Part shown: piece after piece, positions 26,521 to 41,240 of the stretch
Layout of the letters: the number at the start of each line of letters is the position of its first letter
Position numbering within the stretch: position 1 is the first letter of the stretch
DNA from: the human T2T-CHM13v2.0 reference genome, Homo sapiens
Length of the DNA stretch: 64,000 bases
Reading direction: 5' to 3' (one strand)
Assembly (NCBI RefSeq): GCF_009914755.1
Contig: NC_060935.1
Program-made: the position numbers and the translations under genes
The notes under the pieces: generated by a model
What the model was told of the DNA's origin: nothing
Databases searched by the model: none
The model's input: only the letters and a program-made list of their open reading frames with translations

Positions 26521-27165
26521 GTTTATAAGGGGGCTTTTATACCTAAAGCGTTTGCTAAGGATGGTGGGGAGAATTTGTTTATTAAAGCATCCTTTTTCTC
26601 CTATGTCTGAAAGATGGGCTGTGGGAATGAAACGAACACTGTGAAGTAGTTGGCAGAGTTCTTAGGAAGCCATCAACAAGTGATGATCCTGATGGTTAGA
26701 ACCTCTTCCTCTTCCTCCTTTTTTCTAATTACAAAGTCTTTGATTTCAATTGGTCCCAGAGTTATTTTGATTTCTCTCTCTTTTTTTTTTTTTTTGAGAC
26801 GGAGTCTCTCTCTGTCACCCAGGCTGGAGTCCAATGGCACGATCTCGGCTCACTGCAACCTTTGCCTCCCCGGTTCAAGCAATTCTCCTGCCTTAGCCTA
26901 CCTAGTAGCTGGGATTACAGGCATGCGCCACCACGCCCGGCTAATTTTTGTATTTTTAATAGAGACGGGGTTTCACCTGTTGGACAGGTTGGTCTCAAAC
27001 TCCTGACCTCAAGTGATCCATCTGCCTCGGCCTCCCAAAGTGCTGGGATTACAGGCGTGAGCCACCACACCCGGCAATTTCTCTTAAAAACAGACTTTAC
27101 TGAGCTCGTTTTGTTAAAGTAATTTTAATCATTGTTTTCCCATTTACTTCTCAAAAATTGTTTTC
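26521..27165 (-). mobile_element. Putative C-terminal tyrosine-recombinase remnant of the same DIRS-like element (split by an Alu at about 26781-27075)
   Basis: [12 protein letters not shown] (26724-59, like LCPVRAL..YL.R), then HSVR (26632-43, HxxR) with an in-frame Tyr 34 codons after the His (26539-41). Same strand and expected order relative to pol. Confidence 0.5.
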
Positions 27166-29494
27166 TTTTCTTTTTTTTTTTTTTTGAGACAGAGTCTCGC
27201 TCTGTCGCCCAGGCTGAAGTGCAGTGGCACAATCTCTGCTCACTGCAAGCTCCACCTTCTGGGTTCTTGCCATTCTGCCTCAGCCTCCCGAGTAGCTGGG
27301 ACTACAGGCGCCCGCCACCATGCCCGGCTAATTTTTTGTATTTTTAGTAGAGATGGGGTTTCACCGTGTTAGCCAGGATGGTCTCGATCTCCTGACCTCG
27401 TGATCCATCTGCCTCAGCCTCCCAAAGTGCTGGGATTACAGGCGTGAGCCACTGCACCCGGCCAAAAATTGTTTTCTAATTGAGGTAAAATATACATATG
27501 TGGAAATACACAGATATTAAGTGTACAAGCTGATGAATGTTGCTAATTACATATACCCATATAACATTTATTTATTTATTTATTTTGAGACAGAGTCTGG
27601 CTCTGTCACCCAGGCTGGATTGCAGTGGCACGATCTCAGCTCACTGCAACCTCTGCCTCCCGGGTTCAAGTGATTCTCCTGCCTCAGCCTCCTGAGTAGC
27701 TGGGATTACAGGCATGCGCCACCACATCTGACTAATTTTGTATTTTTAGTAGAGGTGGGGTTTCACCATGTTGGTCAGGCTAGTCTCAAACTCCTGACCT
27801 CAAAAGATCTGCCCACCTCAGCCTCCCAAAGTGTTGGGATTATAGGTGTGAGCCACCACACCCGGCTATTTATTTATTTTTTGAGATGGAGTCTCACTCT
27901 GTTGCCCAGGCTGGAGTGCTGTGGCACCATCTTGGCTCACTGCAACCTCCGCCTCCCGGGGACAAGCAATTTTCCTGCCTCAGCCTCCTGAGTAGCTAGG
28001 ATTACAGGTGTCTGCCACCACACTCGGCTTATTTTTATATTTTTTAGTAGAGATGGGGTTCCACCATGTTGGTCAGGCTGGTGTTGAACTCCCGACCTGA
28101 AGTGATTTGGCCGCCTCAGCCTCCCAAAAGTGCTGGGATTACAGGCATGAGCCACGGTGCCCGGCCATATAACCCATATCTCTATCAAGATATCAAAGAT
28201 CCCCGAAAAGGTCCCTTGTTCCCTTCCTAGTCCATCCCCATCCTCTTCACCCACAGAGACAAATACTCTTCTGATTATTTCTTTGAGCAGTGATTAGTTT
28301 TACTGGTTGTAGAACTCCATGTGATGAAGTTTTATTGTGTGTACTCGATTGTGTCTGGCTTTTTCACTCGGCATTTTGAGATTCACTTATGTTGCGGTGT
28401 GTATCAGCAGTTTGTTCCTTTTTCTTAATAAGTAGTATTCAGTTATGGCTATATCATGATTTGTTTATCCATTCTCCTGTTGACAGGCATTTGGGTTGTT
28501 TCCAATTTTAGGATAGTATGAATAAAGCTGCTAAGAATTTTCCTGTACGAGTCTTTTTGTGTATATGTTTCCATTTCTTTTTTCTTTTCTTTTTTCTTTT
28601 TTTTGAGACCTTGCTCTGTTACCCAGGCCGGAGTGCAGTGGCACGATCTCGGCTCACTGCAAGCTCCGCCTCCCGGGTTCACGCCATTCTCCTGCCTCAG
28701 CCTCCGGAACAGCTGGGACTACAGGCGTGTGCCACGACGCCCAGCTAATTTTTTGTATTTTTAGTAGAGACAGGGTTTCACTGTGTTAGCCAGGATGGTC
28801 TCGATCTCCTGACCTCGTGATCCACCCGCCTCGGCCTCCCAAAGTGCTGGGATTACAGGCGTGAGCCACCGTGCCCGGCGTTTCCATTTCTTTTAAGTAA
28901 AACCTAGAAGTTCTGTGACTGGGTCACAGGAGGGTGTATACTTAATGAGAAACTGCCATACTGATTTGCAAAGTGGTTGTGCATTTTACACTCCCACCAG
29001 TAAGCTATGAGAGTTCCTATTGCTACACATCCCTGCCAACATTTGGTGTTACCAGTCTTTTTAATTTTAGTCATTCTAGTAAGGGTATAATGGTATTTCA
29101 TTGAGGTTTTATTAAAATTTCCCTAATGGCTAATGATTTTGAACTCTTTTTCATGTGCTTATTGGCTACTTATAAATTTTTCTTTGTGAAGTGCCCATTT
29201 AAGCCTTCTCTTATTTTTAAAATTGGGTCATTGGTTTTTTTTTATTGTTATTATAGATTTATAGGAGCTATTTATACATTCTGGGCACAGTCTTTTTTTA
29301 GATATTACCTCCTATATTATATAATATGTATTTAAATCATTATTATAATATAATAACATATAATATAGTAATTACATAATACATACACATATTATATAAT
29401 AAATGTTTATTCCCAGTCTGTGTCTTCGCTATTCATTTTCTTAATGGGTCTTACAATGAATAGAAATTTTCAAATTTGCTGACATTTGTTAGTT

Positions 29495-30445
29495 TGTTAT
29501 GGTTTGAATGTGTCCCCAAAATTTCTTTCTTTCTTTCTTTGTTTTTTTTGAGACAAAGTCTCAAAGGCTGGAGTGCAATGGCACGATCTCGGCTCACTGC
29601 AGCCGCCGCCTCCAGGGTTCAAGTGATTCTCTTGCCTCAGCCTCCCCAGTGACTGGGATTACAGGTGCCTGCCACCATGTCTGGCTAATTTTTTTTTTTT
29701 TTTTTTTTTTTTTTTGTATTTTTAGTAGAGATGGAGTTTCACCATGTTGGCCAGGCTGGTCTCGAACTCCTGACCTCAGGTGATCCGCCTGCCTTGGCCT
29801 CCCAAAGTGCTGGGATTACGGGTGTGAGCCACCATGCTTGGCCTTTTTAAAAAAAATTTTATTTTTAGATGAAATCTCTCTCTGTCACCCAGGCTGGAGT
29901 GCAATGGCGCAATCTCGGCTCACTGTAACCTCTGCCTCCCAGGTTCAAGCCATACTCCAGCCTCAGTCTCCCGAGTAGCTGGGACTACAGGCACGTGCCA
30001 TCACACCCGGCTAATTTTTCTATTTTTAGCAGAGACAGGGTTTTGCCATGTTGGCTAGGCTTGTCTCAAACTCCTGACCTCAGGTGATCCACCTGCCTCG
30101 GTCTGCCAAAGTGCTGGATTACAGGAGTGAGCCACCACGCCCGGCCTCCAAAATTTCATCTGCAAATTCATATGTTGATGGTATTTGGAGGTGGGGCCCT
30201 TGGAAGGTAATTAGGATGGTGGCTATATAAGAAGAGGGAGAGAAAGCTGACCTGACATGCTCTTGACCTCTTGCTGTGAGATGCCCTCCTCCATGCTACG
30301 ATGCAGTGAGGAAGCCCTGATCGGATGCAGCTCCTTGAGCTTGAACTTTCCAGACCCCAGAGCTGTGAAAAATATATTTTTTTTTTTTTTATAAATTACA
30401 CAGTCTCAGGTTTTCAGATACAGGAACAAAAAACGGACTAAGACA
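29495..30445 (+). mobile_element. MaLR (MST/MLT1A-like) LTR interrupted by two Alus
   Basis: tgttatggtttgaatgtgtcccc...tttggaggtggggcc...acggactaagaca. Confidence 0.75.
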
Positions 30446-39376: not shown

Positions 39377-39379
39377 TAA

Positions 39380-41240
39380 AAAATATAAGGGTCAATTCTA
39401 GGATTATCTTTACAAATGGCTACTCTAAAAATGCTCTGTAAATGTCTCTATTGCATGTAGGTGGGATAAGCCTAAAGTTAGTTCCAGAGGCAGGGACAGT
39501 TCTGAAGGACTTGATAAAAATCACTCACAGATTCTGCACAGACAAGGACACTCCCAACGTGAATAGATAACTTGTTGGATGCATCTGCCAGCATCTGAAC
39601 TGCTGGCAACTTTTGTTTAGAATGAAGAGCTTTCAGCCCAGCACCTCGCCTCCATTATAATGTTTTGCCTCCTGTTTTGTTTATATAAAAGACTACAGTC
39701 TTGTCTTAGAATTTCTGGGTATTATGAGTACCTTAGGGAAATCTGATTATAGAGATAATCTACTCAACAGTGAAGAGTTTCAATTTGTTTCTATTGAGTT
39801 TTGTCAATTCCGAATCCCAGATACCTTTGTATTCCAGTCCATTGACTAGAGCCTCCCAGCCAGACGTTGAGGCATCTGTTTCTATAGTCTCCGGAACTGG
39901 AAAAGATAAATAAGAATGTAGGGGAATTATCTGTATATTTGCTAACCACCAATTTAGATCTAAATAGACTCCCTCTGTTAGGAAGACTAATGAATTCCAA
40001 TTCTCTGAAATATCCTTTGCTTTTAACAAGCAAGATGGAAGGTATCTAAAGAAAAAAAACAGGGCGAGATACACAGAGGGAAAAGCTGTGAATAATGCCA
40101 CCAGAGAACCAATTATGTTCACCAGCTGGCATTGAGAAACTTGTTTCCTTTGACAAAAAAAGATTTTAGTTTTAGCCTCAAAATACTTTTTGACATTGTG
40201 TTCTTCAGGGCTGAATGACGAATCCTCTCAACCACCCCCATAAAGTGTTAGAAAAAAATTCTTAACATCATTGTTATATGTAATGTGGCAAAGCAATGGG
40301 CAAGAAGAGAAAAACAAGCTAAGGCATCAATATGGCAGTTAAGAAGAATCAACTGAATAAAATGATAGTGAAATGAAACATGAAAACAGAGACCTTCCTC
40401 CCAGCCATATGACTGAATCAATGAGGCACATTCACGGGGTATGACAGTGATAAACAAACTGGTAAGAACATCGAATAGATGTAAAAATGTATTTCTTGTG
40501 AAAGCATAGTCAACTACTATATATCTCAGTGATATAAACTGCATTTTGAACTTTTTTTCTTTCTATTTGTGGGGAACCTCATTGATTGCAACCAAGCCTA
40601 GAATGGAACCTTTTGTGCTTTAGTGGGTGAGACATAATCTATTTCATGATCTCTCAGTTGGTAAAATTTGCAAAGAAGGCTGGGCACGGTGGCTCACACC
40701 TGTAATCCTAGCACTTTGGGAGGCCAAGGTGGGAGGACTGCTTGAGTCCGGGAACTTGAGACCAACCTGGGCAACATAGCACCACCCTGTTTCTACAAAA
40801 ATTAATAATAATAAATTAATTAGCTAGGCACGGTGTTGCACATCTCTGGTCCCAGCTACTTGGGAGGCTGAAATGGGAGGATCACTTGGGCCTGGGAGGT
40901 TGAGGCTGCAGTGAGCCATGATTGTGCCACTGCACCCCAGCTTGGGCAACAAAGCAAGACCTTGTCTCAAAAAAAAAAAAAAAAAAAAAAAGCCAAGAAG
41001 TGGTGACACCTAATCTCGAGCTCTCATTAGAGCTTTTTTTTCAGCTACCAGGACTCCCGTTGAGCCAGTCTTGTCTGGGAGTCCCCTGTGGTCCATCTGC
41101 TCCAAGTTGTTCCTTGGGGAAATACTTGTGAATTCAAGGTTTTCACTTTTTATACTACTTTAAAACTTGCCTTTCCCAAGTATCTATTTAAATTCCATTA
41201 ATATCTGTAGAACAAGTGCACTCAGACCAGGCTTTGTTGA
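39380..41240 (-). mobile_element. Degraded DIRS-like (tyrosine-recombinase retrotransposon) pol region: RT, RNase H and start of a methyltransferase-like domain; interrupted by an Alu at about 40678-40991
   Basis: Collinear minus-strand motifs: LEF (41130-38), SILGLVAINEV (40575-607), FKM (40542-50), HIDA for YxDD (40323-34), FMGVV (40230-44), DLNWW (39946-60), TDASTSGW (39856-79), GIW, NRNKLKLFTV, DKTVVFYINKTGG (39667-705), LPAVQMLAD (39583-609). Stops and frameshifts are present. Confidence 0.8.

What the first reader, a model, noticed from the sequence alone, without database searches (positions are those of the whole stretch)
26521..41240. Candidate fossil DIRS-type (tyrosine-recombinase) retrotransposon hidden antisense in HTR3B intron 2
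Seen: once Alu, L1, L2 and LTR insertions are mentally removed, the remaining minus-strand islands give motifs in a fixed order. These are pol N-terminus (41240-41000), RT (40610-40230), connection and RNase H (40227-39570), methyltransferase-like (39570-39380, resuming 38280-38110), recombinase N-part (37140-35840) and recombinase C-part with HxxR...Y (27165-26521). Established: RT-RNaseH-MT followed by a tyrosine recombinase rather than a DDE integrase is the architecture of DIRS1-like elements. These occur in fish, amphibians and reptiles and are generally reported as absent from mammals. Inference: this is a near-complete, very old single insertion, stretched over about 15 kb by later transposons, which would largely explain why intron 2 is 22 kb. 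I do not know of an existing annotation but cannot verify novelty.
Basis: partly seen in the sequence, partly recalled or inferred. Interest (0 to 1): 0.93.

Follow-up and report, generated by a model that had tools for sequence, protein, structure and literature searches.

The report
Short DIRS retrotransposon fossil, HTR3B intron
A roughly 0.5-0.8 kb decayed piece of a DIRS-type retrotransposon polymerase gene really does lie antisense in HTR3B intron 2, but the claimed near-complete 15-kb element is not there, and such fossils in the human genome have been in print since 2021.

Summary
Partly confirmed. One of the six claimed islands is real. Window 40155-39664 (-) matches positions 278-439 of a 914-position profile of 20 DIRS pol proteins (91 bits, i-E 1.6e-29, one frame, 3 stops). 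phmmer against 1.84 billion proteins gave 544 hits at E<=1e-3. The distant hits are RT + RNase H + methyltransferase-like + tyrosine-recombinase proteins.

A second island, the start of the methyltransferase-like domain (39620-39345), has only weak support: 10 of 848 null tiles score as high.

The other claims have no support from Pfam, my own profiles or a frameshift-aware aligner. These are the pol N-terminus, RT, the second methyltransferase piece and both recombinase islands. The recombinase islands are 76% and 63% Alu, and parts of the best collinear chain lie in L1 ORF2.

Alus make up 42% of intron 2; the fossil is under 4%.

Human DIRS fossils were reported by Yao & Frith 2021 and Frith 2022, so the kind is known. 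I could not check whether this locus is on their lists because supplements were closed. The decay load (K about 0.1-0.25) points to a mammalian-stem insertion or past constraint.

The parts
39664..40155 (-). Core fossil: DIRS-type pol segment running from the RT thumb/connection into the N-terminal two thirds of RNase H (profile nodes 278-439 of 914). One frame, 3 in-frame stops, no frameshift.
   Evidence: hmmsearch of the A1 profile: 91 bits, i-E 1.6e-29. My RNH profile: i-E 2.6e-31. phmmer gave 544 hits. My own aligner scored 125.6 against a maximum of 28.7 in 608 null tiles.
39760..40227 (-). 155-codon stop-free stretch containing most of the core. It ends at a stop after ...FTVE; among the look-alike ORFs that reach this point, 6 of 7 end there too (P0155 reads ...FPVSRL).
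39570..39620 (-). Candidate start of the methyltransferase-like domain (nodes 514-530; LNKSCQQFRCWQMHPTS against consensus LNHQCPQYVSWKPDPQA). It is shifted by one frame from the core. If real, nodes 440-513 have been lost.
   Evidence: 19.5 bits. Reached by 12 of 300 shuffles, 11 of 170 window tiles and 52 of 848 human tiles. Weak on its own.
39345..39386 (-). Candidate second methyltransferase-like block (nodes 531-545), in the same frame as the previous block but 183 bp further on.
   Evidence: The chain of both blocks scores 25.5, reached by 1 of 300 shuffles, 2 of 170 window tiles and 10 of 848 human tiles.
40662..40999 (.). Alu-like repeat bounding the unique island on the pol-upstream side. 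This is context, not part of the fossil.
   Evidence: About 63 in-window matches.
38548..39211 (.). Alu-like repeats bounding the island on the pol-downstream side. This is context, not part of the fossil.
   Evidence: About 70 in-window matches.

Best explanation
The locus holds an isolated, dead fragment of the pol gene of a DIRS1-like, tyrosine-recombinase retrotransposon. It lies antisense in HTR3B intron 2.

What survives is the RT thumb/connection and the first two thirds of RNase H (40155-39664). A few residues of the following methyltransferase-like domain may also survive (39620-39345).

Inferred history, not shown: a DIRS element integrated here in an ancestor. Deletions and replacement then removed or erased the gag, RT, recombinase and terminal repeats. 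The remnant drifted, and primate Alus later landed on both sides.

It is single-copy in the human genome and I assign it no present function. The 155-codon open stretch is a leftover of the old frame, not a gene. Several look-alike ORFs from other sources carry frameshifts within it, and the RNase H part has stops and has lost a glutamate that I recall as catalytic (LEL has become LKL).
For: Homology:
- phmmer found 544 proteins at E<=1e-3 and 11 at E<=1e-10.
- Distant hits are 23-39% identical and 109-1677 aa long.
- Pfam on 18 of them found RVT_1 in 15, Phage_integrase in 2 and LAP2alpha in 1, and no integrase-core (rve) match. P0124 carries RVT_1 + Dam-like + Phage_int_SAM + Phage_integrase.
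- Of the 143 non-orthologue hits, 95 carry my RT profile, 73 the methyltransferase-like profile and 12 the recombinase profile.
- The DIRS pol profile hits only 40155-39664 (-), at i-E 1.6e-29.

Copy number in the human genome:
- The DNA is single-copy.
- The RNase H + methyltransferase-like + recombinase part of DIRS protein P0014 finds only this locus (E 8.1e-11).
- The RNase H-only protein P0010 also finds only this locus (E 1.4e-12).

The rest is absent.

It fits the literature: DIRS fossils at 20 hg38 sites, and 5 + 37 pre-amniote DIRS fossils.
Against: - Zero frameshifts over 492 bp with only 3 stops is tidier than I would expect from very long neutral decay. Part of this is selection, because the block is defined as the stretch that still aligns.
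- The two-block methyltransferase-like chain (10 of 848) and the recombinase chain score (1 of 40 null tiles reach it) are slightly above background. A few more crumbs of the element cannot be excluded.
- My own-genome searches used a stricter first look and found none of the other published human DIRS sites. 'Only this locus' therefore reflects the tool's sensitivity and is not a census.
- Age and orthology outside the unnamed look-alike ORFs were not testable.
Confidence: 0.8

Rival explanations
1. One reading: a near-complete DIRS element (pol N-terminus, RT, RNase H, methyltransferase-like domain, recombinase) stretched over about 15 kb by later insertions. This would account for the size of the intron.
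For: - A chain that allows long insertions scores above shuffles: nodes 440-914 give 92.8 against 67.1 +/- 7.0, and 0 of 60 shuffles reach it.
- The recombinase nodes score 57-59 against 47 +/- 5.8 in unrelated human 10-kb tiles, and 1 of 40 tiles reach it.
- One block aligns H-P-I-R to the consensus H-S-T-R at 30339-30265.
Against: - The chain consists of 20 blocks of 3-19.5 bits, each at or below the single-block chance level.
- Blocks at 33204-33088 and 32862-32809 lie in sequence that matches human L1 ORF2p residues 753-876 (E 4.5e-7).
- Nodes 440-914 are unremarkable against real human tiles: 5 of 40, 31 of 40 and 32 of 40 tiles reach the three target scores.
- No RT signal lies upstream.
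- Pfam finds no RVT_1, Phage_integrase or Dam in the three minus frames of 26000-41300.
Confidence: 0.04
2. The fragment is much older (pre-amniote) than its decay suggests. It was kept recognisable by constraint, that is, it was exapted as a non-coding element or was once part of a co-opted gene that later died.
For: - The score of 91 bits with 3 stops fits only K of about 0.1-0.25 substitutions per site in my simulation. At K=0.3, 3% of simulated copies reach 91 bits; at K=0.4, none do.
- There is no frameshift over 492 bp.
- Frith 2022 reports that many detectable pre-amniote fossils are conserved or exapted (passages).
Against: - No conservation data could be examined.
- Look-alike ORFs show frameshifts and differences consistent with drift.
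- The RNase H part is broken by stops.
- No RefSeq functional element is listed here in the hub's table.
- The simulation ignores indels and rate variation.
Confidence: 0.15
3. The similarity comes from a different reverse-transcribing element (Gypsy, ERV, hepadnavirus-like) or from chance.
For: Pfam itself gives no family for the window's translation. The reverse-transcriptase part of DIRS protein P0014 does match 49 other places in the human genome; from its 25-33% identity over the RT domain alone I take these to be retroviral or LINE RT copies, which I did not check.
Against: - E 1.6e-29 against the DIRS profile.
- Hits carry methyltransferase-like and tyrosine-recombinase domains, and no integrase-core (rve) family appears among the reported matches for the 18 and 20 proteins scanned.
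- No PDB retroviral RNase H match at E<0.1.
- The non-RT part of a DIRS protein hits this locus and nothing else.
Confidence: 0.01

Closest known systems
DIRS/Ngaro protein fossils of the human genome (Yao & Frith 2021, bioRxiv 10.1101/2021.01.25.428050; Frith 2022, PMC9004415)
   Same: Both are single-copy, heavily decayed fragments of DIRS pol, found only by DNA-versus-protein homology and often in introns of large genes. The idea that old elements are pulled apart by later insertions also appears there, under 'genome tectonics' (passages).
   Different: HTR3B is not named in the main text of Frith 2022, and 'chr11' does not occur in the Yao & Frith 2021 preprint. The site lists are in supplements or external files that I could not open. 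Whether this locus is one of their 20 / 5+37 sites is therefore unknown, though likely given its strength.
DIRS1-like retrotransposons of fish, amphibians and reptiles
   Same: The connection/RNase H sequence pattern matches (TDAS..GW..YINK.GG). A methyltransferase-like domain follows RNase H in 73 of 143 homologues.
   Different: No RT, recombinase, gag or terminal repeats are detectable here. There is one copy, not a family.
LAP2alpha domains of TMPO and ZNF451 (Abascal et al. 2015, PMC4495291)
   Same: These are the other DIRS-derived sequences in mammals. They show that DIRS elements were around in mammalian and eutherian ancestors (passages).
   Different: Those derive from gag (ORF1), are expressed and are under purifying selection. 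This one is a pol fragment with stops and shows no sign of use.

Membership tests
DIRS1-like retrotransposon (order DIRS) | RNase H and preceding connection of DIRS type | tested here: met
   i-E 1.6e-29 to the 20-protein DIRS pol profile, nodes 278-439. 544 phmmer hits.
DIRS1-like retrotransposon (order DIRS) | Reverse transcriptase directly upstream | tested here: not met
   No hit to my RT profile or to Pfam RVT_1. Frameshift-aware scores are at background: 52 of 200, 24 of 104 and 189 of 610 nulls reach them. The RT is lost or decayed beyond detection.
DIRS1-like retrotransposon (order DIRS) | Methyltransferase-like domain after RNase H | tested here: inconclusive
   Two short blocks at 39620-39345. 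The chain score is reached by 10 of 848 null tiles and the first block alone by 52 of 848. HMMER found nothing.
DIRS1-like retrotransposon (order DIRS) | Tyrosine recombinase instead of a DDE integrase | tested here: not met
   No Phage_integrase hit and no hit to my recombinase profile. The chain is partly in L1 ORF2. The recombinase is present in homologues: 12 of 143.
DIRS1-like retrotransposon (order DIRS) | gag-like ORF1 (LAP2alpha-like) upstream | tested here: not met
   tblastn with the one gag-bearing hit, P0086, gave only chance-level matches: the two rows's per-bin table that name it have E 4.3 and 6.2, and no bin outside 39300-40300 (-) has a best E below 0.01. This is a weak test. 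Pfam was not run on the minus frames above 41300.
DIRS1-like retrotransposon (order DIRS) | Inverted terminal repeats and internal complementary region | tested here: inconclusive
   Only one 23-nt, 78% complementary inverted pair in the 39212-40661 island. Such repeats are not expected to survive in a fragment.
Human DIRS protein fossil (sense of Yao & Frith) | Genome-wide significant DNA-to-DIRS-protein homology in non-coding, non-repetitive DNA | tested here: met
   Single DIRS proteins hit the locus at E 8.1e-11 and 1.4e-12 against the whole genome. The DNA is single-copy.

The most novel reading that the evidence does not exclude
This may be the best-preserved RNase H-bearing DIRS relic in the human genome. 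It was the only one my searches could see. Its decay load (K about 0.1-0.25) is too low for neutral drift since before the mammal-reptile split. Either DIRS elements were still transposing on the mammalian stem (therian or eutherian, as the ZNF451 capture also hints), or this piece was held under constraint for a long time.
Probability: 0.35. Interest if true: 0.45.

Novelty: already known. Interest (0 to 1): 0.25.

Why it matters
DIRS elements were long listed as absent from mammals (Chalopin 2015 and Kojima 2018; passages). Each relic therefore documents a lost part of the ancestral mobilome. The point was made genome-wide in 2021-22, so this locus adds at most one well-preserved example, plus a rough age argument. 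For the scan, the useful lesson is negative. With 13 kb and three frames to choose from, ordered 'motif islands' arise by chance, and here they ran through Alu and L1 sequence.

Tried and rejected
- Pfam on the window's own translation finds nothing relevant. The DIRS assignment rests on homologues.
- tblastn of all 150 hits gives significant matches only at 39300-40300 (-).
- A cluster of 36 weak tblastn hits at 21000-21125 (-) is a 19-20-residue HINvLEL-like motif with E 0.11-0.93. It duplicates nodes already present in the fossil, so I take it as chance.
- The own-genome search with the whole P0014 protein was swamped by 49 RT-domain matches elsewhere in the genome.
- The own-genome search does not accept an alignment.
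- The Protein Atlas gave only unnamed eukaryotic clusters.
- The PDB gave no match for the fossil.
- My first reading of 'MLADASNKLS' as the N..AD.LSR motif was not backed by any profile. Another frame of the same DNA fits the methyltransferase-like motif better.
- No structure or complex prediction was run.
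Full report
**What is in the sequence.** On the minus strand, 39760-40227 is a 155-codon stretch without a stop. The same frame can be read on to 39478 with four internal stops (protein P0001, 250 residues). 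Pfam gives no family for this translation, nor for any of the three minus frames of 39300-41300.

**What it is related to.**
- phmmer of P0001 against 1.84 billion cluster representatives returned 544 proteins at E<=1e-3, 11 at E<=1e-10 and 2 at E<=1e-30. The best 150 were listed.
- Seven of the listed proteins (P0002-P0007, P0009) are short ORFs 53-99% identical to the query. A word-based search added five more at 69-86%. All come from short unnamed contigs. I take them to be the same locus in other, probably primate, genomes. Of the 7 whose sequence reaches that point, 6 end at the same stop after ...FTVE, and P0155 reads on for a few residues. Several are frameshifted near a poly-T run.
- I dropped those seven before all counts below, which leaves 143 proteins.
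- The 143 are 23-39% identical and 109-1677 aa long.
- Pfam on 18 that I picked found RVT_1 in 15, Phage_integrase in 2 and LAP2alpha (the DIRS gag domain) in 1, and no integrase-core (rve) match. P0124 reads RVT_1, then the matched region, then Dam-like, Phage_int_SAM and Phage_integrase.
- I built profiles from segments of P0124 iterated on the 143. Of the 143, 95 carry RT, 73 the methyltransferase-like domain and 12 the recombinase. No protein had a long unexplained C-terminus after the methyltransferase-like domain.
- That is the DIRS architecture. From recall, the methyltransferase-like domain points to the DIRS1/PAT side and away from Ngaro.

**How much of a DIRS pol is present.**
- A MAFFT alignment of 20 long hits (A1) gave a 914-position profile.
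- Searched with all filters off against the six frames of the whole window, it has one hit: 40155-39664 (-), positions 278-439, 91 bits, i-E 1.6e-29. The hit has three stops, one 4-residue insertion and one 1-residue deletion relative to the profile, and no frameshift. The runner-up has E 0.93.
- In that alignment the first aspartate (TDAS) and the aspartate before YINK.GG are kept. The glutamate of LEL is now lysine. That these residues are catalytic is recalled, not tested.
- My separate RT, methyltransferase-like and recombinase profiles found nothing with E<1 anywhere in the window. In 200-residue chunks their best scores (2-5 bits) are scattered over both strands.
- Pfam on the three minus frames of 26000-39500 also found nothing relevant.

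**Frameshift-aware test.** HMMER cannot cross frameshifts or insertions, so I wrote a profile-to-DNA aligner. It allows frameshifts and fixed-cost long insertions, and Alu-like bases are masked. The confirmed block scores 125.6, against a maximum of 28.7 in 608 unrelated human tiles.

- Upstream (RT and N-terminus, 40156-41300 or 40156-40650). The scores are ordinary. They are reached by 52 of 200 shuffles, 24 of 104 window tiles and 189 of 610 human tiles.
- Just downstream (39300-39663). Two blocks in another frame fit the start of the methyltransferase-like domain. One is 39620-39570 on nodes 514-530, at 19.5 bits. The other is 39386-39345 on nodes 531-545. The pair scores 25.5, reached by 1 of 300 shuffles, 2 of 170 window tiles and 10 of 848 human tiles. 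The first block alone is reached by 52 of 848. This is weak support. It would imply that nodes 440-513 were deleted and that 183 bp now separate two blocks which should abut.

**The long chain.**
- Allowing long insertions all the way to 26000 gives a 20-block chain (92.8) that beats all 60 shuffles. The blocks score 3-19.5 bits each.
- The blocks at 33204-33088 and 32862-32809 lie inside an ORF that matches human L1 ORF2p residues 753-876 (E 4.5e-7 to 2.6e-6). They cannot be DIRS.
- I compared three 10-kb target windows with 40 strand-tiles from 20 arbitrary 10-kb human regions.

| Profile nodes | Target scores | Null tiles (mean +/- sd) | Null tiles reaching each target score |
|---|---|---|---|
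| Recombinase, 640-914 | 52.6-59.3 | 47.0 +/- 5.8 | 1, 1 and 7 of 40 |
| 440-914 | 68.9-86.2 | 77.4 +/- 9.0 | 32, 31 and 5 of 40 |

- I read this as chance chaining. It shows how ordered 'motifs' can be found in 13 kb by eye.
- In-window repeats with 36-70 in-window matches (almost all about 65-70) cover 9268 of the 21930 bp of intron 2. The fossil covers at most about 0.9 kb.

**Copies in the genome.**
- The DNA 39380-40620 matches only itself in the T2T genome.
- P0001 finds only itself, plus two matches at E 0.2-0.4.
- The RNase H + methyltransferase-like + recombinase part of DIRS protein P0014 finds only this locus (E 8.1e-11), plus one match at E 0.34.
- P0010, which is RNase H only, finds only this locus (E 1.4e-12), plus one match at E 0.6.
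- One search reported that it ran with a stricter first look that can miss matches under about 60 bits (as did); one search carried no such notice, only the tool's general note that counts are lower bounds. None of these searches recovered any of the other published human DIRS sites. This is not a census.

**Rough age.**
- I randomly back-translated 40 non-training DIRS segments and mutated them without indels.

| K (substitutions per site) | Mean profile score (bits) |
|---|---|
| 0 | 185 +/- 20 |
| 0.1 | 127 |
| 0.2 | 82 |
| 0.3 | 47 |
| 0.4 | 22 |

- Mean stop counts were 1.8, 3.2 and 3.8 at K = 0.1, 0.2 and 0.3.
- The observed 91 bits and 3 stops fit K of about 0.1-0.25. Only 3% of simulated copies reach 91 bits at K=0.3, and none do at K=0.4.
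- By recalled neutral distances on the human lineage, that is about the age of the placental or therian stem, not the Paleozoic, unless the piece was constrained.
- The model ignores indels, CpG decay and rate variation. The ancestor's own score is unknown.

**What is in print.**
- Chalopin 2015 and Kojima 2018 state that DIRS are absent from mammals, apart from the gag-derived LAP2alpha domains of TMPO and ZNF451 (passages).
- Yao & Frith 2021 report DIRS at 20 non-overlapping hg38 sites (minimum E 3e-45) and Ngaro at 4 sites (abstract and section 3.4 passages).
- Frith 2022 lists 5 tetrapod-age DIRS fossils, 37 further pre-amniote DIRS fossils and 28 Ngaro fossils. None had been found by RepeatMasker. 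The paper offers a browser hub and discusses old elements pulled apart by insertions (passages).
- 'HTR3B' does not occur in the main text of Frith 2022. The site lists are in supplements or external files.

**Verdict.** This is a real but short DIRS pol fossil of a kind already described. The large collinear element, the recombinase and the explanation of the intron's size are not supported.

Noticed in passing
window 32776-33168 (-), also 33663-33905 (-): An old L1 lies on the minus strand. The 130-codon open stretch matches human L1 ORF2p residues 753-876 (E 4.5e-7). The second stretch reads like the endonuclease 'GDFN' region; that reading is recalled, not tested.
   Followed up: partly
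window 21066-21125 (-), just upstream of HTR3B exon 21134-21323: 36 DIRS proteins give weak tblastn hits to one 20-residue stretch (NTQWDQRQYQHHANVLELM) that resembles the RNase H 'HINvLEL' motif. Profile E is 0.11-0.93. Probably chance.
   Followed up: partly
L018 = G000:C12:28137780-28137950 (+); L020 = G000:C6:170736206-170736397 (+): Sub-threshold matches (E 0.34 and 0.6) of DIRS proteins elsewhere in the human genome. The first is to the methyltransferase-like region. They could be other DIRS crumbs or noise.
   Followed up: no
window 40236-40258 / 40552-40574: A 23-nt inverted repeat, 78% complementary, with 293 nt between the arms, lies just upstream of the fossil in otherwise unique DNA.
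   Followed up: no
window about 36150-36215 and about 34560-34610: Two simple repeats are seen as runs in the translations. One is a trinucleotide run (poly-V / poly-N / poly-T / poly-C in different frames). The other is a dinucleotide run (THTHTH).
   Followed up: no
proteins P0002-P0007, P0009, P0152-P0156: Public protein libraries built from short contigs hold 'proteins' that are simply this non-coding locus from mammalian DNA, called as ORFs.
   Followed up: partly
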